Below, in pieces: positions 9,801 to 50,485 of a DNA stretch of 64,000 bases. The translations under genes were made by a program, and so were the position numbers. Each line of letters opens with the position of its first letter. The first letter of the stretch is position 1. The stretch lies in NCBI GenBank assembly GCA_016215315.1, contig JACRKG010000040.1, positions 3,128 through 67,127 of the forward strand. Reading direction: 5' to 3'. The notes under the pieces are model-generated. The model ran no database searches, had not been told where the DNA came from, and worked only from the letters and a program-made list of their open reading frames with translations. The stretch comes from Candidatus Woesearchaeota archaeon. Lineage in GTDB: Archaea; Nanobdellota; Nanobdellia; Woesearchaeales; ARS49.

Positions 9801-12800
9801 CTTCAAAAGGCATGGACTGAGCCAGTCCTAAAATTTTTCTTGCAAGCACTTTAAAAAAAGATTCGTGGCCATAAGCAGCCCTCCTAAAAGCTAACTCAAT
9901 TTCATTATTTAATTCTTGTCTGTGCTTAAAATTTTCTTCTTCAGCTTGCATACCTTCTAATGAAGGGGGAATTTTGTAGCCTTCCTCAAAAACCTCAATA
10001 CTATCATCAGATTGAATCTGTTGAATCTTATCAATAATTTCCTCAGATGTAGCATCAGGATTGTCATTTAGAAATCTATTAATTGCTTCAATTAAATAAA
10101 TATTATAATCTGATTCAACTTCTCCAAAAAGTTGTTCTAAATGTTTTCTTGCTTCTTCAAATTGTTTTTCATTAGAAACATCTTCTGTCAATGTTGCTTT
10201 TTGTGGTTGTACTGATTCTTGCATTAAAATTGGTGGTGGAACGCTAACAGATTTTCTCATTGAAAGAATTCTGGGCGTTTCGGTTCTAAATACTGGCTTC
10301 TCAGTTCTCATGCTTGTTTCTTTGGGTTTTTCTTTTACTTGTTTATTTTTTGATCTAATGACCAATATTACTGTTTTTCCTTTGCCTGCAGTCGTAATAC
10401 TTTTTTCTGGAAGTCCTATCATTTCCTGGTAGTCTTCATTAAATGAAAAAAATAGATTTCCTTCGCTCGTAATGCCCCACTCAACAGAATCACTTCTTTT
10501 TATATCAACAGTGCTAGTTTCACCTTCTGGACTAGTTTCTGAATCGCCTTCAGACGCGTATGTTCCAGCGCCTCTTAGTCCAACAGCATGCTGTCCAAAT
10601 TCTTCATAACTCATTCCTTCCTCTTTTGGAACTTTCCAGGTGCCTTCTTTATGACCTTTTTCTATTTTCCAACTAATAACTTCAACTTCTAAATCATCAT
10701 CAAGAATGGATTCAATCCTTTCTTTCATTTTTTGAACTGCTTCTTCAAGAGGTAATTCCATTAATTCAATTAAGAAGTCTGCATTCATTAAACCGGTATT
10801 TTCCATCCACTCAATAATTCTATCAACATGATAATTGAAATTTTCTTTTTGAGGCATTCCTTCAGGAAAAAAAATGCCGACAGGAGTAATGAATGGAATT
10901 TGCAAAGTTGCAGCAATATAATCTAGCAAATCTTTAAAATTCTGCATTTCTTTAGGAGGTGTTTCTGAAGAAACACCCTTGCTGGGCGCTTTGGCGTGTT
11001 CTGACTTTAATATTTCATTAGCTGTATTGACAAAACCTTTAGCAACACCATCCTTGAAAATGGGGAAATGATTAATTTTGGGTTTGTCAGAAATATAAAA
11101 CAATTCTGTTGGTTGTTTAGTTTGGATTGAGCTAACTTCTTTAGGTTTTGTGTTAAATAATCTTTCTAATTCTCGTTTGGCTGCTTTTCTAACAACTTCT
11201 GATGTGTGCTTGTTTAGTTCTTCAAGCACTTTTTGTTTTCTGTGCTTAACATTTTCTTCATCAACTGTCCATTCTGGAAATAGATTGTTTATTAAAGAAT
11301 AATGCGCGGAATCTTCTGAAAAGTTGTTCACTAATTGCAATACTTTCTTGAAATCTTCTCCTGAACCGTATTTTAACAAATAATGAAGATTCTTTGTTCT
11401 AAAGTATTCACTTAAATTTTCATCAAAAATAAACTCTCGTAATGCTTTGAGTAAAACTTGTTTAACTTGTTCTTTAAAAGATTCAGAATTTGTTATTTTA
11501 ATAAGTTGATCCAGATTAAAAAATCCGTTACTTACCTCTTCAAGAGAACTTTCTTTTTTTATTTGTTCTTCAGAGAAAGCCAAATGACGTAAATCTTGTT
11601 CGGATGGTGGTTCAGTTGACGTAATCTTTTTTTCTTTTGTGGGTACTTCTTCAAAACTCATAAAGTGTTCAACGATTTTGCGGGCTGATTCTCTGATGCT
11701 AGATTCCTCTTCAGGATTATTTGCTATTTCTTCAAGAACTTTTATGGCTTTTTCGTCATTAACAGATAATGTATTGATGATAATTTCCATTATTGCTTCA
11801 TAACTTAAGCCAGAATTATTTACTGCCTGTTCTATTAAATTTTCATCGTAATAAATTCTTCTTAATTCTTCAATGGATTTTTCAAAAGGAAGAAATGCTA
11901 CAAAATTTATGAATGCCGCGAAGTATTTCGGCAGCAAGAATGATTTTGCTAGATCGTAGTATTTTGCAAGTTCTGTTTCTTCAGTAGTGGAGACTTTTTT
12001 CTCCAAAAGTTCAAGCAAATAATCTCTTGCACGATAAGAATTACTTCTTATGTTGGCATTTTCTCCAGTTTCACTCCAATAATTGAATGTATTGATTAGC
12101 AAGATAAGCGTTCCAACATCTAAATTTACCTCAGTTAATTGATTTTTAATTGATGAGTTTTTGAAAGGTTCTCTTGCTATTCTTTCTTTTAATAATTCTT
12201 CTAAAATATCTAATGCGGGGTTTGATCCTATTTTTGCTAATATTTTTATTGCTAATTCTGTTCCTAAATTTTTTATTATTAATCTATATAATTCAATACT
12301 GTCTTCTTCAGTTATAACAACTGAAAGATCTTGAACTATTAGCAATAATCTTTGTTCATATTCAACTCCTCCAGATTTATTGAATAATATTTCTTTTAAG
12401 AACGCAATTCTTTGTTCGTAAGGGAGTCGTATTAAATCTTTTACTAAAAGAGAGCTATCAAAATTTATTAAATTTGTAATGGCTAAGTCTCTTATTTCTT
12501 TTTCTAGTTCTTGATTTAATGCGATCTGCATCAGTTCAGGATAGCTAAAACCTTTAGCACCTCTGTGGAGTGCTTCTTTTTTAATATCAAGGTCTATTCT
12601 TTGGTCGAGGATTATTTCTTGAAAGAAACTTGGTGCTAGAGTGCCTAATGCTTCAATAATAGTTCTTTTTGCATAACTGCTTAATTGAGGATTTAAGAGT
12701 AATTCTTTAAATTTGTTAGTTCCTTCTTTGTTTAATAATGCTCTTATTGCGCTAGATCTAACCTCTAAAGGAACATTCGTATCTGGTACAACTGAGATTA

Positions 12801-15800
12801 ATAAGTCTATTAATTCTGGTGTGTCTAGAAGTTCTTTGGCGAGCCATAATTGCTCTGCAATCAGAATTTTATAGTATTTGTGCAGTTCGGGTATATTTAG
12901 TAGTTTTTTTAAAACTTCAAATTTGCCGTTTTCACTTAAAATTTGTATGATTTGATCATTTATTTCATATAAGTCCAAATCATACGGTCTTTGTTTTATG
13001 ATATATTCAAGTGTCGATTCAGCTTCTGGAAATGTTTTAATAATTTCTCTTTTCTCGTATTTATTTAGTCTGTTTGAATCTAATATTTTCTCTAATATTT
13101 CAGTCCTTTCAACAGGACTTAATTCATACTTCAAAATTTCTTCTTTAAAAAATTTGGCAAATGATCCTATGTTCTCAAAACTTTGCAAATTAATAATTAA
13201 ACCTATAAACCATGATAAGAATTTTCTATTTTCTTCTTTGTGTATTGCTGTTTTCAAGAAATCCAGGGCAGAATATGCAAAATCTGCTTTTACTTGTCTG
13301 AGCTTCATGATTTTTTTAATTAAATATAATTTATTTAAATCGCTAACATTCGGATTTTTAAATAATTCAAATAAATGGTTGACATCGTACCAAGATAGTA
13401 TTTCAATAAAAGCACCCTCGTTGCCTTTTGTTACTGGAGTTATCAGTTCTTTTTTTATTAATTCCATTAATTCAGAGTGCTCTTTTAAAAATTGTTGTTG
13501 ATTGAGAAAAATGTACAAATGAATTATTATTCTTAATTTTATTTCATCACTGACATTTGGATTGAATAATAATTCTTTCAAATCTTGAAAGTTTGTTTCA
13601 TCACCTTTCGGTCCTGCCAAAACGTATAATGCACTTATTTTATCTTCAAGAGTTTTATCAGGATCTAGAACTGTTTTTTTTGCATCAGACGATTCTTCTT
13701 CAGGAGATTTAACTCCTGATATCCAATCCCAAGTTCTTCCAAACCATCCTTTTTGTTCAGATTTTAGTATTGATGTTGGCTGTTTTGATGGTATTTCTTG
13801 TACTGGGTATTTTTGTTCTGATTTTACAACTTTGATTTGTTTTGTGATTTCTCTTTTTCCTTCTTCAGAAATTCCTGCTGGAATTTCTCCGGGTGATTCT
13901 TCAACTGATGCTTGAATTTTTTCTCCGAAATTCAATTTCAATAATTTTAGTAAGCTTTCTCTTAGTCCGATGTCTTCTATTCTTGAAATTAAATCATAGA
14001 ATTCTTGTGTTGGTGGAATTCTTTTTTGAACTATTAAATTAACTAGTTGTGCAAGTAATTGTTTTGTTTTGTTTACTAATTTTGGTTTTGGTGCGTAAGG
14101 ACTATCTGAATCTGGAAGTAAATCAGTTATTTTTTTGATTTCTGTTAACGCGTTTATTAAATTAATATATGTTTCTTGAGCTTGCTCAGTACTTAATTCT
14201 AGTCTTGATAAAGAATTAATTTGTTCTTGAATGTATTCTAATAATTTGGTGACTTGATCGTCAATTTGTTGACTATAAATGTTTGATGGAAGCGTTCCTT
14301 CCGAGTATTTCTCGTTAATATTTGCATGGCTTAATAGTGTTGTAAGGGTTTTTAGTAATTCTGAAACATTGAGATTTTCTCCTCTTTCAAGAGCGCTTAG
14401 CAGGTAATAAAATCCGAAATCTTTTAGCAAGAAATAAGCTTTTGTTGTTAGTTCAGGAGGGAATTTAGTCATTTCTAATAATTGGTAAATTAAGTAAGCC
14501 ACTCCAGGACTTACGTTTGGTAACGTTCTTTCCTTCAGTCCTATTTCGAGTTGTGAAAATAATTCGTTCAATATTTGTATTGCTTTCTCTTTTTTCCTGT
14601 CATCAGGCAAGTACTTAATTATTTCAAGTAATAAGCCACCTTCTTTTATTCTATCTTGGTATAATTTGTGTAATTCGGTGAAAATTAGTGAAGAATATGC
14701 TTCTTTCGTTTTTTCTGTCATTAAGCTATAGACTTCAAGCAAATATTTTTCTTTAGCTTTAAGAGGTATTTCTGATATTGATGTAAAAAGATCAAACAAG
14801 TCATACAAGTAGTTTTGTCTGTGTTCTTCAGATAATAGCTTTGCTAATTCTAGCAAGTCCAAGTGAAAGTCCATTCCTAAACTTCTTGTAAGTTTAAGTC
14901 TTGTGGGTTCTTTTGTGCATTCTTTATCCCCGCATTTAGTGAATTCAAGTGTTTCGTATTCAGTTATGATGATTGAAGTTATGAAATAATTATATCGTTT
15001 ATATAAATTTAATAACATTTCAAAATAAGCTTGAACATCTCTTTCGTTTGATAATAAACTTATTCGGTCTTTGTAGCTTTGCAATCTTCCAAGCAGTCTT
15101 CTTGCAACAAAAGTATTTAGTTTTTCTTCATCGGTTAGTTCTGGATCAAACTCAGTTAGTGCGGGGAATTCTCCGCTGTTTATTAATTCGTCCATTAATT
15201 TCTTTGCTTCTTCAGGATTGTTATAGAATGAATTAATCATTTCATCAATTTCATTAATTAGTCCGGTTAATTCTGCTTTGACTTTTTGTTCATCAACAGG
15301 TTTCACTTCTTCTTTTGTTACTTCTTCAGTTTTTAATACTTCAACAGGCTTTCTTACTGTGCCGATTTGTGTTTTGAGAATCCTGGCGGATTCTCCGGGT
15401 GTTTTTTTGTCTACTGATTCTTTTTCAGCTCTTTTATTTTTGATTTCTTCAAATAATTTTTGTAAACTAATAATTGATTTTATTTTTTCAAATTCATTAT
15501 TTGCTCGTTCTTTGACAAATTGTTTTTGATCATCAGGCAAAGTCTCGTGTTTTTCTAAATATTCATTGATTTTTTGAATAAATTTGTCTGCAAATTCATT
15601 CTTTTCATCGTTATTGAAACCACTGAAAGAATTAATAAAACTTGAAGCATGTCTTGATAGCCTGAAAAGATTTTCTGGACTCAAATTATTTATGTTTTCT
15701 AAAAAGTAATTGAGCGTTTTGATAGTTACTTGTTTTAGAACTGTTTCTTCTTGAGTGTCTTTTACAAGAAGATGATAATACAAGAAATTATCTAAAAAGT

Positions 15801-18800
15801 CTTTAACCTCTTCCTCGGAAAGACTTGAATAATTTATGGCTAATAAATCTTCGTAAAGCGCTAAAATTATTCCTTTTTCTTCATCGCTTGCAGTGTCTTT
15901 TATATCATATGATGTTTTGTAAAGTGCAAGAAGGAATTGCGTTTTTTCGCTTTCAGTCAAACTCGATTTGTTTTCCTTGAAAAATGCAAAAAGCTTCAAG
16001 GATGCTTCTCTGTTTAGTTCTGTTTTTTCTTCTTTGGTTAGAAAGTTTCCAAACAAAACTCGATCAATTAATTTGAATAATTCTGAGACTTTTTCAGTTG
16101 ATAAAGTTTTTTTGTTATTCTCAAAATGTTCCAATAGTTTTCTTGCAATTTTTTGTATTAATTGTCTTCCTTCTTCTGAAACGCGATTTTCTCCTGTAAC
16201 ATCAACTAATTCTCCTTTTTGTATTGTTTGGTATGTTGGCATTAAATTTACTGAAAGAATATCGTCTAGCATCTTTAAAAGTTCAAAATTGGAAAATAAT
16301 TCTTCTGTGTGATTATCAAAAAGTTCGTTTAGCGAGTTGACAATTCTTTGTGCTAATTGATCTTCATTTTCTATGTTAAATTTGTAAAGGACCGTGTTTA
16401 AGAGTTGTAGAATGCCTAAAGATTCGGATAATGTTAACTGATTTTTTTGTGTTTCATATTTGAGTGATAAATCTTCAAATATGAACATGATATTTTCAGG
16501 ATTCATTGCTTCTGGAGAAATATTTGTTATTGTTTCTAAAGCATATAAAATTAGGTGTGTCTCGCCTAAAGCTAATGTGTCTTTGTTGTCGATATAGATT
16601 CCTAAAATTGTTTCAGCAAGCAAGGACAAATTCATCTCGCTTAATTTAACACTTTCTTTAAATCTTAGAAGCTCTAAACCTTGAGCGATTGTTAGCAAAG
16701 ACGTAACCAATTCATTGAAAGGCTTATTTTTTTCACGAATAAAAACATTAATCAGATCTTTAACTGTTTTTGCTAAATCTGGTTCCACAACTTTTTCAGG
16801 GGGTGCTTCTGGAGCTGCACTTTTTAGTATTGAAGGCAAATTAAATGGTTCTCTTCCAATGCGTGTTGCCAAAAATGGAGAAATTGTTTCCAATTTATAA
16901 CTTGTCTTTTTTGGTTTGTACTTCTCGAGTTTTTCTAAATCTTTTTGCACTTCTGCATCTTTTTCATACGTGCTTCTCATTTCGAGTTTGTTAATGAAGT
17001 TGTCTAGTATTATCGTTTTTTGTTCTTCACCGAGTTCTGAGCCGGACAATATTTCTTCGAGAAGTTCAATGATTTCGTTTCTTAAATCTCTATTTTCTAT
17101 TTGATATAAAAGTTCTAAAGATTCTACAACTTCTTTTATTACTCCATCAGGGATATTTTTTATCAGAATTATCTCTTTTAGTGCTTCAAGTGTTCCCGAA
17201 GGAGGAACTTCATAATCAGTTACTACGCCGCTGTTTAAAATGAAATTTCTAATTAATTTAATTTTTTGTGCTTCACTTAAAGCAGGATCCTGCATTTGTT
17301 CTGTGAGTGTTGGAATAACCTCTAGTTTAATTTTTATTTTTTTCCACAAATAATAAAATGAGTCGATAACATCATCCACAATAGGTATTCTTTCACTAGT
17401 CAATATTCCCGGATTCTTTTTTTCAGGAACGACTTCTTGTCCTTTTAGTTTGTCAATGATCTTTTTAACTTTTTCAAAGTCTCCTTCTTGTAATGCTTTT
17501 GCTAGTTCTGCTTTTCTTAATTCTGGTAAAGAAAGTTGGGAGCTTACTGCAGGCATTCTTCCTGGACCACATTTTGCGCAATCAACACACGTACCTTTTT
17601 CATTCACGTATTTTGCTTGAGCTAAAGGACATTTTATGCATTTAACACTCTCCAGAACTGCGTTTAAGATGGCAACTGATGCTTTGACTCCTGATAAGGA
17701 AGCTCTAACATTTTGGTGTGCTGCATAATTAACAAAAGTATTACCAACCATTGCTTTAAAGATAGAACTTCTAATTTCTCCACCAATACTATTTGCGTGT
17801 GCTTTTGCTTGGTTAATTCCTTTTTTGAATTCTTCATCGTAAAATTTAACTAATTCAATTTCTTGCTTTGCCTTATCTAAATAATTATTAACTCCGGGGC
17901 ATGCTGCTTGAGGCATTGCTTCTAAGACAGAATTTAAAGAATCAACAAGCACTTGGTTGTTAACATTGTCGAATGTTTTAATGCTGTCTTGTAAATCATA
18001 TTTTAGATTTGTTGGAGTGATTTTGTTCATTGCTTTCTTTAAGTTTTCCAAATCCCTTGATTTTTGTTTTTCTCCTCTTTGTTTTGATTGTCTTATGGCA
18101 AAATCAGTGTCCCATCCTTCAGCGTCGAATAATTTAGAAATAAACTCTTCAGTGAATGGTGAAGCTCCATATACTAAGTGTTTGTAAGCATCATTCAAAT
18201 TGCCGTTTGCTTGATTGATTTGGTTAACGGCATTCATTAAAGCAATAATTGCAGAATCATCAGAACAAGTGCTCAAGTATTGTTTTGCTTTTTCTATTTC
18301 TGGGTCTAATGGAGGCAAGCATTGACTTATTTTGTTTATTTCACCAACAGCGTTGTTATCTTCTTGAACTTTTATTAATCCTTCAATGAAATTCATTACT
18401 CCGCCGTAAATTTGGTCAAATAACCATTTTTCAGGATCTTGCTGAGTTGCCTTGCCGGTTAAAAGATTCCTTGCGGAATCTTTATTTTTTTGTTCTTCTT
18501 CATATTCTTTTATTGCGTCAGCAATATCAATAATAATTGGTTTTTCTTTGTCTTTTTTCACGAAAGGCATTAGTGGCCATTGAGGTATTGGTGCAATAGG
18601 CCAAACGCCAGAACTTAAAATGTATTTACAATCGATTCCTTTTGGTGGCTGTGGTTTGTCCATGCAGTCGGGGCATTGTTTTAAGCAAACAAGTCCTTGT
18701 TGTAAGTTTTCTAAGAAATTCTGCGGGGAGTTTTCCTTCGGAAAACTAGCAACAGATTCAGTTGAAGGAACACAGTCCTGTTTTACTGGATCGCAACCGT

Positions 18801-19797
18801 TAGGGCAGTAAGTACTTCTTAATCTGTTAATTGTTCCTTCGCAACTAAAATGATTAAGAACTTTATCATTGCAATAATCGGGGTAACTTTCTGCTTTTGT
18901 TTGAGTGTTTCCTTTTTCATCGAGCCATACTTCTCCAATTTCGATATGTAATGGATTTTTTAGTTCAATGCAGTAATTGCTTTTTTTACTTTTATCGAAA
19001 CAATTATTTTCTAAAGAATTACAACCATACTGGCATTCAACAATTTCTGAACCTTTACAAGTAAACTTTAACAGTTGATTCCCTTGGCATTTATTTTCTT
19101 GTAATGTTTGTCTTCCGTCAGGGTAAGAATATTTAGCACCTTCAACAGTATCTTCACAACTTACTTGTCTGCAAGCTCCATCAAAACAAGAAAACTCAAC
19201 TTTCTTGCCTGGAGAAACTTCTATTTCAGGACAATAAATATTTTCCTCCTTAGAAAAACCTTTTTCATCACAAGAGTATTCTTTTAAAAAAAGATTTCCG
19301 TTTTCGTCAAATAAACATATATCTTCTTCACGAAATGGCTCGTTAGTAATAGTAACACCTGTGACCTGACCTGGCACGAGAGCAGGCATAATTTCATCTC
19401 CATCGCTATCAGTACATGTTGATTCTACTAGTTCTTGTGTTGCTTTTGGACAATCTTCAGGACAAGTGAGTTCGTTTTCTGCTGGTTTATTGTACACTCC
19501 TTCTCTATCACAGTATTTATCCCCGCAAAAGCCTGTAAGAATTAGTTCTTTTGGAGGAATTTTAGGAGGTAATGATGGTTGAGTGGGTTTTTCTTGAGGA
19601 ATTTCGTAGACTGGCTGTGGAGTGTAGTATTCAGTTGGTGGTTGTATTGTTTGTAATTCTTGGTTGGTGGGTGGTGGGTTGAAATCTGAAGGGAAATCAC
19701 TAACAGGTCTTCCTGTAATTGTGTAAGAAAGTGCGGTAGTTAAGGGTAGATTTATGAATAGTAAAATGACTAAAATAGCAAAAATTTTTTGATTCAT
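3823..19797 (-). CDS. Giant (5324 aa) secreted multidomain protein: signal peptide, Pro linker, Cys-rich repeats, helical/HEAT-like repeats, two transglutaminase-like domains, C-terminal HEEGH zincin-like domain
   Basis: Uninterrupted 15,975-nt ORF; SD GAGGT and TATA-like TTTATAAA upstream; GxxVCR..GHxW..DLDPT twice; HEEGH at 4411-4425. Confidence 0.9.
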   Translation of the reverse strand: MNQKIFAILVILLFINLPLTTALSYTITGRPVSDFPSDFNPPPTNQELQTIQPPTEYYTPQPVYEIPQEKPTQPSLPPKIPPKELILTGFCGDKYCDREGVYNKPAENELTCPEDCPKATQELVESTCTDSDGDEIMPALVPGQVTGVTITNEPFREEDICLFDENGNLFLKEYSCDEKGFSKEENIYCPEIEVSPGKKVEFSCFDGACRQVSCEDTVEGAKYSYPDGRQTLQENKCQGNQLLKFTCKGSEIVECQYGCNSLENNCFDKSKKSNYCIELKNPLHIEIGEVWLDEKGNTQTKAESYPDYCNDKVLNHFSCEGTINRLRSTYCPNGCDPVKQDCVPSTESVASFPKENSPQNFLENLQQGLVCLKQCPDCMDKPQPPKGIDCKYILSSGVWPIAPIPQWPLMPFVKKDKEKPIIIDIADAIKEYEEEQKNKDSARNLLTGKATQQDPEKWLFDQIYGGVMNFIEGLIKVQEDNNAVGEINKISQCLPPLDPEIEKAKQYLSTCSDDSAIIALMNAVNQINQANGNLNDAYKHLVYGASPFTEEFISKLFDAEGWDTDFAIRQSKQRGEKQKSRDLENLKKAMNKITPTNLKYDLQDSIKTFDNVNNQVLVDSLNSVLEAMPQAACPGVNNYLDKAKQEIELVKFYDEEFKKGINQAKAHANSIGGEIRSSIFKAMVGNTFVNYAAHQNVRASLSGVKASVAILNAVLESVKCIKCPLAQAKYVNEKGTCVDCAKCGPGRMPAVSSQLSLPELRKAELAKALQEGDFEKVKKIIDKLKGQEVVPEKKNPGILTSERIPIVDDVIDSFYYLWKKIKIKLEVIPTLTEQMQDPALSEAQKIKLIRNFILNSGVVTDYEVPPSGTLEALKEIILIKNIPDGVIKEVVESLELLYQIENRDLRNEIIELLEEILSGSELGEEQKTIILDNFINKLEMRSTYEKDAEVQKDLEKLEKYKPKKTSYKLETISPFLATRIGREPFNLPSILKSAAPEAPPEKVVEPDLAKTVKDLINVFIREKNKPFNELVTSLLTIAQGLELLRFKESVKLSEMNLSLLAETILGIYIDNKDTLALGETHLILYALETITNISPEAMNPENIMFIFEDLSLKYETQKNQLTLSESLGILQLLNTVLYKFNIENEDQLAQRIVNSLNELFDNHTEELFSNFELLKMLDDILSVNLMPTYQTIQKGELVDVTGENRVSEEGRQLIQKIARKLLEHFENNKKTLSTEKVSELFKLIDRVLFGNFLTKEEKTELNREASLKLFAFFKENKSSLTESEKTQFLLALYKTSYDIKDTASDEEKGIILALYEDLLAINYSSLSEEEVKDFLDNFLYYHLLVKDTQEETVLKQVTIKTLNYFLENINNLSPENLFRLSRHASSFINSFSGFNNDEKNEFADKFIQKINEYLEKHETLPDDQKQFVKERANNEFEKIKSIISLQKLFEEIKNKRAEKESVDKKTPGESARILKTQIGTVRKPVEVLKTEEVTKEEVKPVDEQKVKAELTGLINEIDEMINSFYNNPEEAKKLMDELINSGEFPALTEFDPELTDEEKLNTFVARRLLGRLQSYKDRISLLSNERDVQAYFEMLLNLYKRYNYFITSIIITEYETLEFTKCGDKECTKEPTRLKLTRSLGMDFHLDLLELAKLLSEEHRQNYLYDLFDLFTSISEIPLKAKEKYLLEVYSLMTEKTKEAYSSLIFTELHKLYQDRIKEGGLLLEIIKYLPDDRKKEKAIQILNELFSQLEIGLKERTLPNVSPGVAYLIYQLLEMTKFPPELTTKAYFLLKDFGFYYLLSALERGENLNVSELLKTLTTLLSHANINEKYSEGTLPSNIYSQQIDDQVTKLLEYIQEQINSLSRLELSTEQAQETYINLINALTEIKKITDLLPDSDSPYAPKPKLVNKTKQLLAQLVNLIVQKRIPPTQEFYDLISRIEDIGLRESLLKLLKLNFGEKIQASVEESPGEIPAGISEEGKREITKQIKVVKSEQKYPVQEIPSKQPTSILKSEQKGWFGRTWDWISGVKSPEEESSDAKKTVLDPDKTLEDKISALYVLAGPKGDETNFQDLKELLFNPNVSDEIKLRIIIHLYIFLNQQQFLKEHSELMELIKKELITPVTKGNEGAFIEILSWYDVNHLFELFKNPNVSDLNKLYLIKKIMKLRQVKADFAYSALDFLKTAIHKEENRKFLSWFIGLIINLQSFENIGSFAKFFKEEILKYELSPVERTEILEKILDSNRLNKYEKREIIKTFPEAESTLEYIIKQRPYDLDLYEINDQIIQILSENGKFEVLKKLLNIPELHKYYKILIAEQLWLAKELLDTPELIDLLISVVPDTNVPLEVRSSAIRALLNKEGTNKFKELLLNPQLSSYAKRTIIEALGTLAPSFFQEIILDQRIDLDIKKEALHRGAKGFSYPELMQIALNQELEKEIRDLAITNLINFDSSLLVKDLIRLPYEQRIAFLKEILFNKSGGVEYEQRLLLIVQDLSVVITEEDSIELYRLIIKNLGTELAIKILAKIGSNPALDILEELLKERIAREPFKNSSIKNQLTEVNLDVGTLILLINTFNYWSETGENANIRSNSYRARDYLLELLEKKVSTTEETELAKYYDLAKSFLLPKYFAAFINFVAFLPFEKSIEELRRIYYDENLIEQAVNNSGLSYEAIMEIIINTLSVNDEKAIKVLEEIANNPEEESSIRESARKIVEHFMSFEEVPTKEKKITSTEPPSEQDLRHLAFSEEQIKKESSLEEVSNGFFNLDQLIKITNSESFKEQVKQVLLKALREFIFDENLSEYFRTKNLHYLLKYGSGEDFKKVLQLVNNFSEDSAHYSLINNLFPEWTVDEENVKHRKQKVLEELNKHTSEVVRKAAKRELERLFNTKPKEVSSIQTKQPTELFYISDKPKINHFPIFKDGVAKGFVNTANEILKSEHAKAPSKGVSSETPPKEMQNFKDLLDYIAATLQIPFITPVGIFFPEGMPQKENFNYHVDRIIEWMENTGLMNADFLIELMELPLEEAVQKMKERIESILDDDLEVEVISWKIEKGHKEGTWKVPKEEGMSYEEFGQHAVGLRGAGTYASEGDSETSPEGETSTVDIKRSDSVEWGITSEGNLFFSFNEDYQEMIGLPEKSITTAGKGKTVILVIRSKNKQVKEKPKETSMRTEKPVFRTETPRILSMRKSVSVPPPILMQESVQPQKATLTEDVSNEKQFEEARKHLEQLFGEVESDYNIYLIEAINRFLNDNPDATSEEIIDKIQQIQSDDSIEVFEEGYKIPPSLEGMQAEEENFKHRQELNNEIELAFRRAAYGHESFFKVLARKILGLAQSMPFEDPYTVNEPNTKAFIEIVNNIKADNDLILVKKIYEFVTKILPIFERSDVMCRNFETLITQGKAVCRERSPLLVYALKLRGIDAKIITSNAVGEGAGHMWVTVTINVNNKLVEFDLDPTWYREFIPLHERFKGVEEERARETFEAIWKQYEGVQGKRYITEPEKASEIPKETSMRTEKPKEVSSTILKTEVPGFLAMQKPMGASIPILKQEEQKYTQTKPTLDEINRRCKEDKESLMREALERDFYKDILDLCDGKNLSEELTAKVVERLRSEYASNGSLFRHYIYQFGSKVFFSEIQKIYSEDKTKLSLSEIYFLVNFGYDDPKISESIASFLMNVSLDKELNENFRIEVQKLSINFFFYLRDYFEQKKENPDFTSVEENTYDNWAAELIKELDNKIDDVKYVLLASQIKHNPEGMLDFSVKFSVLTRNFGELSLSEILTLTEAVANHYKIFRNDSFVNNFLIQIESSEIPQENKDDIIRILITHLSLLNLQKETLPWFNPEALIESIAKNSSEAVKNYANTVLILMKKAEIVNFEENTVLIDQVLLFIKDNIALFGDKAISSEKIIDFIQQIQGEDWVTGLHSKSSLETVQDLEKRKYYSYGIFDIYKFSYEGSSFIGSLLRTLSKIITFNYEDYKNPYTPQEPLSAAFLDKIRHLESKNELELVMKIYSLAEDMVKVYELHSEFCKPMEEVLLKGNGVCRDFAALLYHALKERGIDVKYVDGFTEKITEGHIWVRVRITVENIPMEFDLDPTGYKEFFPLHPREFKIDNEQAMNYFKEQAFEQPVFLAMQKPMGAQIPILKQFAPQPPQVIPQQEEQKSNVEEQVNKLFDDFLMLLKQSPNEIYSISLFNAFNQIINQYLQDLRNNGNQEEQQKASLMIYKKFTQLRESKPEIFEVVKRNYLSLTTNLFNQMSPDDKKQFADQLFNSLLEQYKETGEQYIINNAIPSIMDFLVEKKIEKVKMILDLILTQIEGNEQNWNTYYLPELVRMLGYPAEATEKVYELVKKETSKWEYQDAGACYQMRARLITLLIHSQIENKNQEIQEINSMVVAKLKRLPENMLDRAHYGPLYNELMSDIEALPELQPLAVDLYELLMNIFFQRMKDNFQRPDDDSFKQMLYNELPSLLKLLPESMKQEKTEELFNILILLANGKRSLIEDSRQKIRQNKINELDQNKLGEYRRLLAALLNVVETLGFPKEKTETVYRLVKELFTIMSNTQVNWKMEFNEFEKMVKIIDVLGLDKHKEYPTILRTDNINSAESVGIGYMIGDWRTMIKVYIMNQIAMFGENNFFGIIEIAKLFTKISDFVLSIPPELEELNLDKKKEALSDVLNNILKAQNKFEKREIPEEFFVQLIKSINSLPLDEQTKKEFLLEYFKESLKELSTKEQTYSLLKYFLENLADEQKEFVKQSILEFIEKRYSSDNVIDMKAALYDLARIGFDDKPLLDDFFQKLSNDQILSFVSFEEFAQLFSFFNFELIMNKLVELKKQQEQTYSETTKAFIDVLYAVLNKKLNSAFEEGNKEFLTYVRFSIQSNEIELLGELIKSAWSDLSEEEKTKILEFSKQKYLPSNITQYVEFSNNLPDEVALQIIKELYENEQEFDKVINALTKERGLFENDAEGAYEYAIGIIIDELIKIKGENSVAFIKKIIKDNKDNSKIVERARKKLETLSEPRKTEDVKEGLKGQKEELKVIKKIKSTVKFPEIEQPAQKPVQKSAEILKSEEKDLTQEKTIEEKSSLEIPEPEVPSLELRPLFENFQKITEQRFEEKGGFQNLGESLAAYYFGQIFMVLNHEEGHAHVTEAYAAQYDLGINVGFGTLTTNKNMPDLGLFKGLTRQNARLTEKQYESITLGGFAASQELYCRVNEGLVQNDDGSFENRVGHWIAFTAGMDFPVHCLESYTSDVVNYGDIDYLIKQGYETDIKRALVADVIGKAPDLYWHFTKGLGMETSRPDWFSFRIPGTNFRLKISARAFIDPQNRIIAPYVEGEITSE

Positions 19798-47473: not shown

Positions 47474-48457
47474 TTACCACATTCCTTTAGGATAAGAGAA
47501 TCTTCTCAAATTTTCAAGAACTATTGAGAAAGAATATTGCTTTAAGTCTTCTTTGAAATATGCTCTTAAATCTGTGAATTGTACATCGAACTCTCTTTGA
47601 TCTTTAGCAATAATTAATATTTTGATATCATAATTTCCCAACAATCTTTCTGCATGAAGAATATTATTCTGTGTTTTCAAGAATTCAGAAATTTTTCTTC
47701 TTTTTTCATTAGAAAATTTGTTAATTTTTAAGAGCAAAACATAAGTTTGCAAACCAAACTTTTCATAATTAATAATTGCTTTAGCCTTAGTTATTACCCC
47801 TGTTGTTACAAGTTTGTTAAATCTTGAAGTGCAAGAGTCGATGCTTAAATTAGTAATTTGCGCTAGTTTAGCCATATTAATATTGGCTTTGTTTGACAAG
47901 GTGTTCAATATTCTTCTATCTTTTCCTTCCAAAACTATTTTTCCGTAATATCTCTCAGGCCATTTAGGTCTGTAATCCATATTTGCAAGAAAATTAAGTC
48001 TTTCATGCTTCATAGGAATTGTATTTGAAAGAATTTGGTTTTCAGCAATGTTATCTCCAAATTTATCATTTAACTCGTCGATAAAATCTGCCAAACCGAA
48101 CTTATCTCTGACTGCAACAGTAATAATAAAATCCCAATCACCGCTGCATCTATCAAGATATTTGATATTTTTGTGTGTTTTCAAAAAAGAACACATTTCA
48201 TTTAAAACTTCATTGGTTATTTTTTGTAATTTGAGTGTTATAACATACGTATCAAAATTGAGTTTTCTATTACTTATTACTAGATTTATTCCTGTGATAT
48301 ATTTTTCTTTTATCAGTTTTTTAATCCTATAAGCAACTAGCTCTCTGGAAAGATGGATTAATTTAGAAATTCTCGTCTGAGACAGCCTTCCATCTTCGTT
48401 AAGCAAATACAGTATTTGTTTATCCTTTTTATCTATGGATTTAACATTTTTAGGCAT
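47474..48457 (-). CDS. Tandem (double) Lrp/AsnC-family transcriptional regulator
   Basis: Two wHTH+RAM units: DKKDKQILYLLNEDGR...RIKKL...SGDWDF and KDRRILNTL...RFNKL...LGNYDI. Confidence 0.88.
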   Translation of the reverse strand: MPKNVKSIDKKDKQILYLLNEDGRLSQTRISKLIHLSRELVAYRIKKLIKEKYITGINLVISNRKLNFDTYVITLKLQKITNEVLNEMCSFLKTHKNIKYLDRCSGDWDFIITVAVRDKFGLADFIDELNDKFGDNIAENQILSNTIPMKHERLNFLANMDYRPKWPERYYGKIVLEGKDRRILNTLSNKANINMAKLAQITNLSIDSCTSRFNKLVTTGVITKAKAIINYEKFGLQTYVLLLKINKFSNEKRRKISEFLKTQNNILHAERLLGNYDIKILIIAKDQREFDVQFTDLRAYFKEDLKQYSFSIVLENLRRFSYPKGMW

Positions 48458-48524
48458 ATTATTTACTAAAATTGGACTAAATATATAAATTTTACCTAGA
48501 AAAGTAAAAAATAAAAACTTAAAT

Positions 48525-48532
48525 TTTATATT
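48525..48532 (+). promoter_or_regulatory. Candidate archaeal TATA box for the RNA array/Ro60 transcript
   Basis: TTTATATT about 26-30 nt upstream of the first stem-loop unit; an opposite-strand TATA at 48482-89 fits the Lrp gene. Confidence 0.5.
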
Positions 48533-48557
48533 AAAGCTTGCTTTTCTTTCTTTTTAT

Positions 48558-48620
48558 GAGGTGGAGGAAAGGTTACTCCGGCTTAAAACCGAACAATTAT
48601 TACCTTTTCTCTTAGTCCTC
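48558..48620 (+). ncRNA. Candidate minimal Y RNA, class 1 copy a
   Basis: GAGG/CCTC ends; 10-bp GAGGAAAGGT/ACCTTTTCTC stem; GTTACTCCGG and TAGTCCTC motifs shared with 48708-48792. Confidence 0.6.
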
Positions 48621-48634
48621 AAAACGCACACAAA

Positions 48635-48703
48635 ATGTGGGAATCATAGCCAGGTATCAAACGGATATCAAAACAATACTTGGTATCAGAGAATCCTATT
48701 CAT
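48635..48703 (+). ncRNA. Candidate structured RNA, class 2 copy a (boundaries uncertain)
   Basis: TGGGA/TCCTA and CCAGGTAT/ATACTTGG stems; GGTATCAAACGGAT and GAGAATCC motifs. Confidence 0.45.
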
Positions 48704-48707
48704 TTTC

Positions 48708-48792
48708 GAGGTGCTGGAGAAGTTACTTCGGTCAACGCGCTAATAACGCTAACGGTTCAAATCCGTGATCTTCTCCGATAGTCCTCGAGCAC
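48708..48792 (+). ncRNA. YrlA-like Y RNA with a tRNA T-arm mimic, class 1 copy b
   Basis: GTGCT/AGCAC and GGAGAAG/CTTCTCC stems; ACGG-TTCAAAT-CCGT T-arm; GCG-CTAATAA-CGC 7-nt-loop arm; directly upstream of Ro60. Confidence 0.72.
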
Positions 48793-48808
48793 AATCACCA
48801 GTCAAACT

Positions 48809-48872
48809 GACTTCAAAAGGTATCAAAGGATGTCCAGGGCTTCTTGAGAATCGCTTGATGTCACGTGAAGTC
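48809..48872 (+). ncRNA. Candidate structured RNA, class 2 copy b (boundaries uncertain)
   Basis: GACTTCA/TGAAGTC closing stem; GGTATCAAAGGAT and GAGAATCG motifs. Confidence 0.45.
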
Positions 48873-48886
48873 TTTTGATATCAAAA
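48873..48886. promoter_or_regulatory. Perfect 14-bp palindrome upstream of the Ro60 start
   Basis: TTTTGATATCAAAA. Confidence 0.4.
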
Positions 48887-48919
48887 AATTCCCCGCAATT
48901 AGTTGGGGTGGAGGTAAAA

Positions 48920-50485
48920 ATGAAAGCACAAATAAAAAAACTATTTGAAAAATATAGAATATACAAGGATGCAACACTAGTAAATTACGAAGGAAATGTT
49001 GCTTTTGAATTAAGCGATGAAGACTTGTTCATGCAAACATTACTAACAAACACTTGTTCAAATACTTTTTACGCTGATAAAGAAGAATTAGTGAAAGAAA
49101 GCATAGAAGTGCATAAAAAAATGCTTGCAAAAGATCCTAAATTTTACGCGCAAGCATTAGTTTACGCAAGAACTAAAGGATTCATGAGATTACAACCAGT
49201 GTTAGGACTAGTTTTCTTGTCAACAATAACAGATAAGAGTTATTTCAGAAGTACTTTCAAAAGAGTAGTTCTTACACCTAGCGATTTAGAATCTTTCTTA
49301 GATTTGTGCAGATCAAAATCTGTAAGACAAGGTCTTGGAAGAAGCATAAAAACTGAAATAATCAGTTATCTAAAAGAAAAATTAACTGAATACTACGCAA
49401 TAAAGTACAAGAAAGCACTAAAAGATGCAGTGAAATTAAGCAGGCCAAATGCTAAAGCATTTGGTGACGTTAAAAAAGCAATTGTCGAATACATAATGAG
49501 AGGAGAACTTACTGAAGATCTTAAGCAAGCAAAAGCAGTGGAAAAATTAAAGACAATGAATCCCGCAAATGATGAAACAGAAATTATAAAATTAATAGAA
49601 GAAGGAAGACTACCTTACGAAGCAGTAGTTGGAGCAATAACACCAACACAAAAAATCTGGGAAGCACTATTGTACCAAATGCCAATATTTGCAACGCTAA
49701 GACAAATTAACACAATGGCTAGAAATAAAGTATTTGAGTCAGAAAAAGCAGTAAATTATGTTTGCGAGAAATTACAACACGTTGAAGAAAGCAAAATATT
49801 ACCTTTTAGATTTTATACAGCGATAAATAGTTTAGATATTTCAGTGCCTAACAAAGTAAAGGATGCAATAGTTGATGCTCTAGAAAAAAGCTTTGTCAAC
49901 ATGCCAGAAATAAAAGGAAAAACATGCATAGCTCCTGATGTAAGTGGAAGTATGTGTTCAGGAAAACCTAGAAATGTAGACATAGCAGGAATATTCAGTG
50001 CCGCATTAATGAAGAAAACAAAAGATTGTATGATATTACCAGTAGACACAGCAATACACCCACACACTTGCAGCACTAGAGACAGTATAATGAGTAACGC
50101 AGAAAAGTTAGCAAAACTAGGTGGCGGAGGTACAGAATTAGACCTTCCCATAATTTACTTGCTAGACAATAAAATAAAAGTAGACAACTACATATGCATT
50201 ACTGACAGCGAGGAATGGTACAGTGATAAAAGATACTTTTGGAACACAAAATCAAGCACAGATAGAGGTTTTTATCAAGCACTAAGAGACTACAAAAATA
50301 AAATCAATCCAAACCTGAAAGTATTTTACATAAGAATAGCACCTTACAAGCATAGCACTGCTCCAGCAAAAGAACCAAACTTGTACAACATAGAAGGCTG
50401 GTCAAACACAGTACTAGACTTTATATCAACAATCAGTAACTTAGGAAAAGACCAAATCGATGCAGTGAAGGCAGTGGAGATATAG
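48920..50485 (+). CDS. rsr: Ro60/TROVE-domain RNA-binding protein with C-terminal vWA (MIDAS) domain
   Basis: NTFYA..EEL, DPKFYAQALVYARTKGFMR, GLGRSIK, WEALLYQMP..ATLRQ, ILPFRF, DVSGSM, TDSE, IEGWS; GGAGGT SD before ATG 48920 (521 aa). Confidence 0.92.
   Translation: MKAQIKKLFEKYRIYKDATLVNYEGNVAFELSDEDLFMQTLLTNTCSNTFYADKEELVKESIEVHKKMLAKDPKFYAQALVYARTKGFMRLQPVLGLVFLSTITDKSYFRSTFKRVVLTPSDLESFLDLCRSKSVRQGLGRSIKTEIISYLKEKLTEYYAIKYKKALKDAVKLSRPNAKAFGDVKKAIVEYIMRGELTEDLKQAKAVEKLKTMNPANDETEIIKLIEEGRLPYEAVVGAITPTQKIWEALLYQMPIFATLRQINTMARNKVFESEKAVNYVCEKLQHVEESKILPFRFYTAINSLDISVPNKVKDAIVDALEKSFVNMPEIKGKTCIAPDVSGSMCSGKPRNVDIAGIFSAALMKKTKDCMILPVDTAIHPHTCSTRDSIMSNAEKLAKLGGGGTELDLPIIYLLDNKIKVDNYICITDSEEWYSDKRYFWNTKSSTDRGFYQALRDYKNKINPNLKVFYIRIAPYKHSTAPAKEPNLYNIEGWSNTVLDFISTISNLGKDQIDAVKAVEI

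What the first reader, a model, noticed from the sequence alone, without database searches (positions are those of the whole stretch)
48558..48872. Alternating two-class architecture of the RNA array (1a-2a-1b-2b)
Seen: units 48558-48620 and 48708-48792 share GAGGTG..GGAG..GTTACTYCGG at the 5' side and TTCTC..TAGTCCTC at the 3' side. Units 48635-48703 and 48809-48872 instead share GGTATCAAA(C)GGAT and GAGAATC. Each unit closes its own stem, with short spacers between. Inference: an ancestral two-RNA cassette was duplicated and diverged, or a polycistronic precursor is processed into two functional classes of Ro-binding RNA. Class 2 is not a family I can name, and its boundaries are uncertain.
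Basis: seen in the sequence. Interest (0 to 1): 0.78.

Follow-up and report, generated by a model that had tools for sequence, protein, structure and literature searches.

The report
Archaeal Y RNAs plus two orphan hairpins
Upstream of a Ro60 gene in a DPANN archaeon lie two genuine Y-RNA-like RNAs of the bacterial YrlA/YrlB kind, while the two "class 2" hairpins interleaved with them occur only in this genome and show no sign of being a second class of Ro60-binding RNA.

Summary

**Class 1 (48558-48620 and 48708-48786) is real and conserved.**
- A covariance model built without 1b finds only 1a and 1b in the 64 kb window.
- It finds 25 units next to Ro60 genes in 17 loci, with strong covariation.
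- The same 5' motif (GRGGYG...GUUACUUCG) heads canonical YrlA-shaped RNAs in bacteria.
- 1a is a simple hairpin. 1b carries an anticodon-arm-like hairpin and a T-arm.
- Both have orthologues in the two closest relatives (Ro60 62% and 64% identical), behind one conserved TATA-like promoter.

**Class 2 (about 48632-48706 and 48801-48880) is weakly supported.**
- 2a and 2b resemble each other only modestly (about 1% of shuffles score as well).
- They lack the Ro motif and score nothing with the class-1 model.
- They are absent from about 150 other Ro60 loci. In the two closest relatives the spacer between the Y RNAs is 14-18 nt, against 87 nt here.

The conserved pair in this lineage is therefore 1a-type plus 1b-type, not class 1 plus class 2. 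The class-2 hairpins are lineage-specific trailers of unknown role. This is a new archaeal member of a known kind.

The parts
47474..48457 (-). Divergently transcribed Lrp/AsnC-type regulator with two HTH domains (327 aa); a candidate regulator of the operon
   Evidence: Pfam HTH_24, HTH_AsnC-type and AsnC_trans_reg. The same divergent arrangement occurs in L001 and L174 (homologue 59% identical).
48504..48513 (+). Conserved upstream element GTAAAAAATA(G/A)A, function unknown
   Evidence: Invariant across the window, L001 and L174 in alignment A11.
48524..48532 (+). TATA-like box TTTTATATT, about 30 nt upstream of unit 1a; the only such element in 48440-48930
   Evidence: Conserved in sequence and spacing in L001 and L174. 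The TATA-like scan is. Promoter function is inferred.
48558..48620 (+). Unit 1a: A-type Y-RNA-like hairpin. P1 is GAGG/CCUC, the internal loop is UG against UUAGU, P2 is about 10 bp, followed by UUACUCCGG and a small hairpin with a 7-nt loop CUUAAAA (48579-48591)
   Evidence: Fold. R1 seed, 69 bits. Orthologues at L001 3151-3213 and L174 3900-3828. Covariation.
48632..48706 (+). Unit 2a: hairpin specific to this lineage, filling the 87-nt spacer between 1a and 1b. It has three GRTATCA copies, ends in U4, and has background G+C (33%)
   Evidence: Folds (z about -1.9). Absent from L001 and L174 and from all other loci. R1 gives 1.2 bits, E=4.
48708..48786 (+). Unit 1b: B-type Y-RNA-like RNA with the same P1, loop, P2 and UUACUUCGG. 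It also carries an anticodon-arm-like hairpin GCG-CUAAUAA-CGC (48737-48749) and a T-arm ACGG-UUCAAAU-CCGU (48752-48766). There is no D-arm and no acceptor-like stem
   Evidence: R1 gives 37.7 bits, E 1.7e-6, and 1b was not in the seed. ARAGORN calls 48708-48776 tRNA-like only at an 80% threshold. Orthologues at L001 3228-3278 and L174 3809-3716, the latter with a T-arm and an acceptor-like hairpin.
48801..48880 (+). Unit 2b: a stable 80-nt irregular hairpin between 1b and the Ro60 ribosome-binding site. It contains a U4 run in its 3' arm
   Evidence: Fold z=-3.4, 0 of 200 shuffles. Not found elsewhere.
48873..48886 (.). Perfect 14-nt palindrome TTTTGATATCAAAA, overlapping the 3' end of 2b
   Evidence: repeats D6, I1, I9. 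Function unknown. Absent from L001 and L174.
48891..48915 (+). Leader hairpin CCCC...GGGG, followed by UG and the Shine-Dalgarno sequence GGAGGU
   Evidence: Conserved in L174, and in L001 with a compensatory CCUC/GAGG change.
48920..50485 (+). Ro60 orthologue (521 aa; TROVE and Ro60-type vWA domains)
   Evidence: Pfam PF05731 and PF25045. 402 homologues at E<=1e-10. 64% identical to the L174 Ro60.

Best explanation
The region is a Y-RNA/Ro60 operon of a DPANN (Woesearchaeota-like) archaeon.

One TATA-type promoter at about 48524-48532 most likely drives a single transcript. It carries two Y-RNA-like RNAs and then the Ro60 mRNA.
- 1a is an A-type simple hairpin.
- 1b is a B-type RNA with an anticodon-arm-like hairpin and a T-arm.

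Both Y RNAs use the same module. A 4-bp terminal helix (GRGG/CCYC) is followed by an asymmetric internal loop (5' UG against 3' NNAKU), a covarying 9-10 bp helix, and the conserved sequence UUACUYCG. This module is the counterpart of the Ro60-binding stem of bacterial YrlA/YrlB RNAs. By homology, Ro60 binds it. The apical tRNA-like parts then act as the effector or gating module.

The two class-2 hairpins are not a conserved second RNA class. They are trailers found only in this lineage, each placed 11-14 nt after a Y RNA. My best guess, at about 40%, is that they act in cis on the precursor. They would protect or define Y-RNA 3' ends and, through their U4 runs, reduce read-through into the next unit and into Ro60.

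Shown: family membership, covariation, synteny, and absence of class 2 elsewhere. Inferred: co-transcription, processing, Ro60 binding, and any role of class 2.
For: Host and gene:
- Ro60 gene with TROVE and vWA domains.
- Archaeal context from S19e and L31e. The best named S19e hits are Woesearchaeota and Nanoarchaeia at 62-68% identity.

Class 1:
- The 5' motif occurs about 97 times in the first 144 loci plus the window, 55 of 149 loci carry it, and 29 carry two or more copies on one strand.
- R1 finds only 1a and 1b in the window and 25 units in 17 loci.
- In that alignment 96.6% of cells are paired. 94 cells changed on both sides, against 24 in shuffles. The covariation score is 0.76, against 0.13-0.24 for slid controls.
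- L006 2315-2440 has the full YrlA layout behind the same motif: 5' strand, T-arm, acceptor-like hairpin, D-arm, 3' strand.
- Mycobacteriophage Bxz1, from a phage group where YrlA was reported, has three tandem units upstream of Ro60 with GGCCGAAGG...CGGUUAYC. Chen et al. 2014 (PMC4201824) describe GNCGAAN0-1G plus YUAY, at least two Y RNAs per species (one tRNA-like, one hairpin), and processing of both from one precursor in M. smegmatis.
- A and B types are orthologous across the window, L001 and L174, with a conserved promoter.

Class 2:
- Absent from all other loci. Viral-contig matches are chance hits.
- No similarity to class 1 (z about 0).
- U-runs or spacer hairpins follow Y units in L174, L145 and L037.
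Against: - There are no expression data, so transcript ends, processing and Ro60 binding are untested.
- The 5' motif here (GRGGUG) is not literally the published GNCGAAN0-1G.
- 1b lacks the D-arm and acceptor-like stem that define YrlA.
- No Rfam family matches.
- For class 2, a cis role is a guess. U4 is a weak archaeal termination signal, the terminator scan found nothing, and 2a has background G+C and an unremarkable folding energy.
- The 2a/2b similarity (p about 0.01) and the local GRTATCA enrichment remain unexplained by this account.
Confidence: 0.7

Rival explanations
1. Class 2 is a second functional class of Ro60-associated RNA. The array arose by duplication of a two-RNA cassette (1+2) and is processed into four RNAs.
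For: 2a and 2b resemble each other more than shuffles do. An end-to-end alignment of the two cassettes is roughly colinear, and repeats D1-D3 and D5 are spaced 137-166 nt apart. Both fold as long irregular hairpins, the general shape of a Y RNA.
Against: Class 2 lacks the GRGGYG and UUAC motifs, and R1 gives 1.2 bits or nothing. It is absent from about 150 Ro60 loci, including the 62% and 64% relatives, which nevertheless keep orthologues of both 1a and 1b. The similarity is weak, and the shared motifs map to different positions in the two folds.
Confidence: 0.1
2. Each class-1 unit and its following class-2 hairpin form one bipartite RNA of about 150-170 nt, ending at the U4 run. Class 1 would be the Ro60-binding module. 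Class 2 would be a 3' effector module specific to this lineage.
For: The first T-runs of 4 or more after 1a and after 1b lie at 48703 and 48873, the 3' ends of 2a and 2b. Y units in L174, L145 and L037 are followed closely by U-runs. Y RNAs are known to be modular (bioRxiv 10.1101/312249).
Against: No relative has such an extension. U4 is a weak signal. 2a shows no compositional or thermodynamic sign of selection.
Confidence: 0.12
3. Class 2 has no function. It is spacer expansion from a local insertion and partial duplication in this lineage, and its hairpin potential is incidental.
For: It is present in this genome only. 2a has background G+C and z about -1.9. The 2a/2b similarity is only at the p about 0.01 level.
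Against: 2b is markedly more stable than shuffles (0 of 200). Both insertions sit at equivalent positions after a Y unit. GRTATCA is enriched.
Confidence: 0.25
4. The repeated GRTATCA(A) motifs and the palindrome TTTTGATATCAAAA act at the DNA level. They would be operators for the divergent Lrp/AsnC-type regulator, or weak internal promoters for 1b and Ro60.
For: Five plus-strand GRTATCA copies lie within 230 bp. A perfect 14-bp palindrome lies 34 nt upstream of the Ro60 start. An Lrp/AsnC-type gene is conserved next door.
Against: L001 and L174 keep the regulator but lack these motifs. The motifs lie inside the presumed transcript. They are poor matches to the conserved TATA of this operon.
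Confidence: 0.08
5. The whole 360-nt region is only a cis-regulatory 5' UTR. Ro60 would bind the class-1 sites in its own mRNA to autoregulate, and no free Y RNAs would be released.
For: Same strand, one promoter, and no strong terminator before Ro60. The Ro60 ribosome-binding-site hairpin itself resembles the class-1 P1 helix plus UG.
Against: In L174 an RNA ligase gene separates units A and B from Ro60. Related units occur in arrays of up to five (L145) and interleaved with tRNAs (L105). Bacterial homologues are stable trans-acting RNAs (PMC4201824).
Confidence: 0.1

Closest known systems
Bacterial YrlA/YrlB Y-RNA-like RNAs (Salmonella, M. smegmatis; Chen et al. 2013 and 2014, PMC4201824)
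   Same: They lie next to Ro60. The 5' and 3' ends pair into a stem with a conserved 5'-strand motif followed by YUAY (UUAC here). There are at least two RNAs per locus, one with tRNA-like elements and one simple hairpin. In M. smegmatis both lie upstream of rsr and come from one precursor. The same GRGGYG...GUUACUUCG motif heads canonical YrlA-shaped RNAs in Chloroflexota and Firmicutes loci.
   Different: The host is archaeal (DPANN). The motif is GRGGUG rather than GNCGAAN0-1G. The 3' strand is also conserved (NNAKUCCYC). 1b has only a T-arm and an anticodon-arm-like hairpin, with no D-arm and no acceptor-like stem. A divergent Lrp/AsnC-type gene takes the place of RtcR/sigma-54 control. 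The extra class-2 hairpins have no counterpart.
Deinococcus radiodurans Yrn1/Yrn2
   Same: Yrn1 is described with a T stem-loop and a possible anticodon arm but no full D-arm, and with both strands of the Ro-binding helix conserved (PMC4201824). This resembles 1b.
   Different: The known effector, PNPase, is a bacterial enzyme; whether this genome encodes one was not checked.
Phage Yrl arrays (mycobacteriophage Bxz1; Thermus phage phiLo Yrl1/Yrl2, PMC12135203)
   Same: Two or three tandem Y-like RNAs lie immediately upstream of Ro60. The next-nearest Ro60 relatives of the window protein (about 45% identical) sit on virus-like contigs that also carry class-1 units (L141, L144, L145).
   Different: The window is a cellular context, with ribosomal protein genes and mixed strands. 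The motif variant differs.
Metazoan Y RNAs (Rfam RF00019)
   Same: A terminal stem with an internal loop or bulge binds Ro60, and the architecture is modular.
   Different: There is no detectable sequence or covariance-model similarity. The metazoan motif GGUCCGA with a bulged C is not present.

Membership tests
Y RNA-like (YrlA/YrlB) - units 1a and 1b | Encoded within about 4 kb of a Ro60/TROVE gene, usually adjacent | tested here: met
   1b ends 133 nt upstream of the Ro60 start codon, on the same strand.
Y RNA-like (YrlA/YrlB) - units 1a and 1b | The 5' and 3' ends pair to form the long stem that holds the Ro60 site | tested here: met
   P1 and P2 fold. Across 25 homologues 96.6% of cells are paired and 10 of 13 pairs changed on both sides.
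Y RNA-like (YrlA/YrlB) - units 1a and 1b | Conserved 5'-strand motif GNCGAAN0-1G | tested here: inconclusive
   The window has GRGGUG(G/C)(A/U)G, which matches the pattern only loosely. The same variant precedes canonical YrlA-shaped RNAs (L006). Bxz1 has GGCCGAAGG at the equivalent place.
Y RNA-like (YrlA/YrlB) - units 1a and 1b | Conserved YUAY after the 5' strand | tested here: met
   UUAC is present in both units and in about 97 related units.
YrlA proper (tRNA-like subfamily) - unit 1b | tRNA-like domain with a T-arm, a D-arm and an acceptor-like stem-loop | tested here: not met
   The T-arm is present (ACGG-UUCAAAU-CCGU, 48752-48766) but there is no D-arm and no acceptor-like stem. ARAGORN calls it tRNA-like only at an 80% threshold. 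1b is therefore Y-RNA-like but not a full YrlA.
Y RNA-like (YrlA/YrlB) - units 1a and 1b | Physical association with Ro60, and dependence on it for stability | not testable with these tools
   This needs RIP, EMSA or a knockout.
Y RNA-like - units 2a and 2b | Ro60-binding 5' motif and stem | tested here: not met
   R1 with filters off gives 1.2 bits (E=4) for 2a and nothing for 2b. Alignment with class 1 gives z about 0.
Y RNA-like - units 2a and 2b | Recurrence next to Ro60 genes in other genomes | tested here: not met
   0 of about 150 loci, including the closest relatives L001 and L174.
tRNA - units 2a and 2b (a tRNA fills this position in L105) | Cloverleaf detectable by a tRNA model | tested here: not met
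   No ARAGORN call on 2a or 2b, even at a 70% threshold. No Rfam tRNA hit at E<=10.
Metazoan Y_RNA and other Rfam families - whole region | Match to the covariance model | tested here: not met
   No hit at gathering score in the window. At E<=10 only chance-level hits appear.

The most novel reading that the evidence does not exclude
The class-2 hairpins could be a new accessory RNA module specific to this lineage. They would be either separate RNAs or 3' extensions of the Y RNAs, recruiting a partner other than Ro60 or base-pairing with other parts of the precursor. Together with a Ro60 ribosome-binding-site hairpin that mimics the Y-RNA binding site, this would form an autoregulatory RNP circuit not described in bacteria or animals.
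Probability: 0.1. Interest if true: 0.6.

Novelty: new member of a known kind. Interest (0 to 1): 0.35.

Why it matters
Y RNAs have been characterised in animals, bacteria and phages. In the literature I could search, Ro60 is noted in archaeal viruses and Borg elements, but no archaeal Y RNA is described.

This locus and its relatives give a well-supported archaeal Y-RNA family:
- a covarying Ro-binding stem;
- two orthologous types, A and B;
- a conserved promoter;
- a conserved neighbouring regulator gene.

That gives a concrete starting point for asking what Ro60 does in archaea. Its best-known bacterial partner is PNPase, and I did not check whether these genomes encode one.

The specific claim of the finding, a second RNA class alternating with the first, does not hold up as a conserved architecture.

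Tried and rejected
- **Rfam.** No hit at gathering score in the whole window. At E<=10 on 48300-49100 there are only chance-level hits, including a minus-strand C/D-box snoRNA match at E=0.11.
- **tRNA search.** Nothing at default settings. At lowered thresholds only 1b is called.
- **Class 2 as decayed class 1.** The model's alignment of 2a (AAUG-UG...UAUU-CAUU) is suggestive, but at 1.2 bits it is not significant.
- **A shared helix GGUAUCAA/UUGRURUC in 2a and 2b.** It is possible on paper. In 2a it has probability 0.0, against 0.99 for the alternative CCAGGUAU/AUACUUGG helix.
- **Class 2 as a repeated mobile element.** There is no other copy in the window or in 176 loci.
- **Class 2 in viral contigs.** The 23 matches all lie in unrelated sequence, with no GAGAATC and no class-1 unit nearby.
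- **Class 2 as a duplicated Ro60 leader or 5' coding remnant.** No similarity above shuffles.
- **Bacterial-type terminators.** None found.
- **Supplementary YrlA alignments and two reviews.** Not held in the library.

Full report
**Context**

The window has 31% G+C. It carries archaeal-type ribosomal protein genes for S19e and L31e. The best named S19e relatives are Woesearchaeota and Nanoarchaeia at 62-68% identity, so the host is a DPANN archaeon.

The ORF at 48920-50485 is a Ro60 orthologue with TROVE and Ro60-type vWA domains. An Lrp/AsnC-type regulator with two HTH domains is transcribed divergently at 47474-48457. The 462-nt gap between the two genes holds the four units of the finding. 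No Rfam family and no tRNA is detected in the window.

**The observation**

In the fold of the whole 396-nt region, each of the four units closes its own hairpin.

Units 1a and 1b are clearly related: global alignment gives z=6.6, with 0 of 1500 shuffles as good.

Units 2a and 2b share AGGTATCAAA(C)GGATRTC and GAGAATC, but the statistics are modest:
- The local score is reached by 21 of 2000 shuffles and by 21 of 2968 random genomic windows.
- The global alignment gives z=3.1, 11 of 1500.
- blastn does not list the pair.
- GRTATCA is locally enriched, with 5 plus-strand copies in 230 nt.
- The shared motifs occupy different positions in the two minimum-energy folds. A common helix that can be drawn on paper has zero ensemble probability in 2a.
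- Only 2b is clearly more stable than shuffles (z=-3.4). 2a has background G+C of 33%.

**What class 1 is**

The 5' motif GRGGYG-N7-9-GUUACUUCG occurs about 97 times in the first 144 loci fetched around Ro60 homologues. It is nearly always on the Ro60 strand and upstream, and 29 loci carry two or more copies.

I built covariance model R1 from five simple hairpins: a 4-bp P1 plus a 9-bp P2.
- It finds only 1a (a seed sequence) and 1b (not a seed; 37.7 bits, E 1.7e-6) in the 64 kb window.
- It finds 25 units in 17 loci.
- In that alignment 96.6% of cells pair.
- 94 cells changed on both sides, against 24 in shuffles.
- The covariation score is 0.76, against 0.13-0.24 when the partners are slid.

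The alignment was fitted to the model. The compensatory P2 variants are nonetheless obvious by eye, for example GAGGAAAGG/CCUUUUCUC against UGUAGGUAG/CUACCUACA.

The link to known Y RNAs is direct:
- L006 (Chloroflexota) 2315-2440 has the same 5' motif followed by a T-arm, an acceptor-like hairpin, a D-arm and a 3' strand. That is the YrlA layout of Chen et al. 2014 (PMC4201824).
- Mycobacteriophage Bxz1 has three tandem units upstream of its Ro60 with GGCCGAAGG...CGGUUAYC. This places the published GNCGAAN0-1G and YUAY motifs where GRGGYG and UUAC lie here.
- Chen et al. also report at least two Y RNAs per species, one tRNA-like and one hairpin. In M. smegmatis both lie upstream of rsr and are cut from one precursor.

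Unit 1a is the simple type. After UUACUCCGG it has a 3-bp hairpin with the 7-nt loop CUUAAAA.

Unit 1b has the homologous hairpin (GCG-CUAAUAA-CGC) plus a T-arm with a canonical T-loop (ACGG-UUCAAAU-CCGU). It has no D-arm and no acceptor-like stem. ARAGORN calls 1b tRNA-like only at an 80% threshold. 1b is therefore Y-RNA-like but not a full YrlA.

**The closest relatives settle the class-2 question**

Two relatives share the divergent Lrp/AsnC-Ro60 arrangement:
- L001: Ro60 62% identical, from a groundwater metagenome.
- L174: Ro60 64% identical, found through the regulator's homologue.

All three genomes share a TATA-like box (AAATTTTATAT) about 30 nt upstream of the first unit, and an upstream GTAAAAAATAGA element. 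All three have an A-type unit (GAGGUG-RAGRAAAGG-UUAC) followed by a B-type unit (GRGGUGC-GRAGGAG-UUACUUCGG). In L174 the B unit has a T-arm and an acceptor-like hairpin. An RNA ligase gene and a third unit then precede Ro60.

The A-to-B spacer is 14 nt in L001, 18 nt in L174 and 87 nt in the window, where it is unit 2a. Unit 2b likewise has no counterpart in either relative.

Class-2 sequence was found nowhere else:
- 0 of about 150 Ro60 loci.
- No further copy in the window.
- Only chance matches in viral contigs.

It also shows no similarity to class 1, and none to the Ro60 leader or 5' coding region. It does not resemble a tRNA, although a tRNA-Ala fills the equivalent position in L105.

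The conserved pair in this lineage is therefore A-type plus B-type Y RNA. The class-2 hairpins are additions specific to the window's lineage.

**How it most likely works**

Shown: class-1 family membership, covariation, synteny, orthology of the A and B types, and absence of class 2 elsewhere.

Inferred:
- A single promoter produces a precursor. It is the only TATA-like element in 48440-48930, and no terminator was detected.
- 1a and 1b are released from that precursor and bind Ro60 through P1, the UG/NNAKU loop and P2.
- The tRNA-like apical parts serve as the effector or gating module, as in bacteria.

For class 2 I commit, at about 40%, to a cis role. The hairpins would act as structured trailers that define or protect Y-RNA 3' ends. 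Through their U4 runs at 48703 and 48873, they would limit read-through into the next unit and into Ro60. Related arrays place U-runs or small hairpins after each unit (L174, L145, L037).

The rivals are:
- neutral spacer expansion (0.25);
- bipartite Y RNAs with a 3' module (0.12);
- a true second class of Ro60-associated RNA (0.10);
- the whole region as an autoregulatory UTR (0.10);
- DNA-level operators or promoters (0.08).

**Novelty and verdict**

Class 1 is a new archaeal member of a known kind. In the searchable literature, Ro60 is mentioned for Asgard viruses and Borg elements, but no archaeal Y RNA is described.

The alternating two-class architecture is an accurate description of this one locus. 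It is not a conserved design, and class 2 as a Ro-binding RNA is unsupported. Interest is moderate to low for the finding as stated. The archaeal Y-RNA family itself, and the tRNA-shaped variants noted in passing, are the more valuable leads.

Noticed in passing
L037 2580-2709; L035 about 2327-2449; L139 725-851; also L118 and L137. Rfam tRNA hits with a roughly 40-nt insert at L023 2733-2840 and L015 2735-2841: These are tRNA-shaped relatives of YrlA with normal tRNA topology. The order is acceptor 5' strand, D-arm, class-1 3' strand, loop, class-1 5' strand (so the Ro stem is closed by a loop), UUACUUCG, a hairpin with an anticodon-like loop (CUUGUAA), T-arm, acceptor 3' strand. This is a circular permutation of canonical YrlA. 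It occurs in ANME-1/Methanosarcinales MAGs and, apparently, in Herpetosiphon. I found no description of it in the papers I read.
   Followed up: partly
window 48891-48915; L174 2452-2412 (minus strand); L001 3285-3306: The Ro60 ribosome-binding site sits in a small hairpin, CCYC-loop-GRGG, followed by UG and GAGG. It has a compensatory CCCC/GGGG to CCUC/GAGG change between genomes. It resembles the class-1 P1 helix plus the UG loop: window 48904-48917 is 86% identical to the 5' strand of 1a. This could allow Ro60 to autoregulate by mimicry.
   Followed up: partly
window 47474-48457 and 48504-48513; L001 2056-3051; L174 4001-4984: A two-HTH Lrp/AsnC-type regulator gene is conserved divergently from the Y-RNA/Ro60 operon in three genomes. 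An invariant GTAAAAAATAGA element lies between the two. Homologues of the regulator without a Ro60 neighbour also exist (L172, L176).
   Followed up: partly
L174 2529-3584 (minus strand); L141 7873-8934: RNA ligase genes (PF09414) lie inside or near archaeal and virus-like Y-RNA/Ro60 loci. This echoes the bacterial rsr-yrl-rtcB linkage, but with a different ligase family.
   Followed up: no
L105 53-287; L146 187-1487; L145 920-1535: Related arrays vary widely. L105 has a tRNA-Ala sandwiched between two Y units. L146 has nine tRNA genes upstream of Ro60. L145 has five tandem Y units with conserved AUCAUAAUYWAGGUG junctions and small U-rich spacer hairpins. L141, L144 and L145 look viral, with many short ORFs.
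   Followed up: partly
window 48873-48886: A perfect 14-nt palindrome, TTTTGATATCAAAA, lies 34 nt upstream of the Ro60 start. It contains a copy of the GATATCAAAA found in the apical loop of 2a, and is 10 nt complementary to that loop. It is absent from L001 and L174.
   Followed up: no
window 48579-48591 and 48737-48749; many loci: The conserved UUACUUCG is followed in many units by a short hairpin with a 7-nt loop of the form CUNNNAA, which looks like an anticodon loop. The stems differ by compensatory changes between 1a (CGG/CCG) and 1b (GCG/CGC).
   Followed up: partly
window 3823-19797 (minus strand): A giant ORF of 5324 aa. It was not examined.
   Followed up: no
phage record KC292026.1 (L171 2444-3973): The haloarchaeal virus HGTV-1 encodes the best phage match to this Ro60 (26.6% identity; annotated as a hypothetical protein with a TROVE domain). 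Its flanks were not examined for Y-like RNAs.
   Followed up: no
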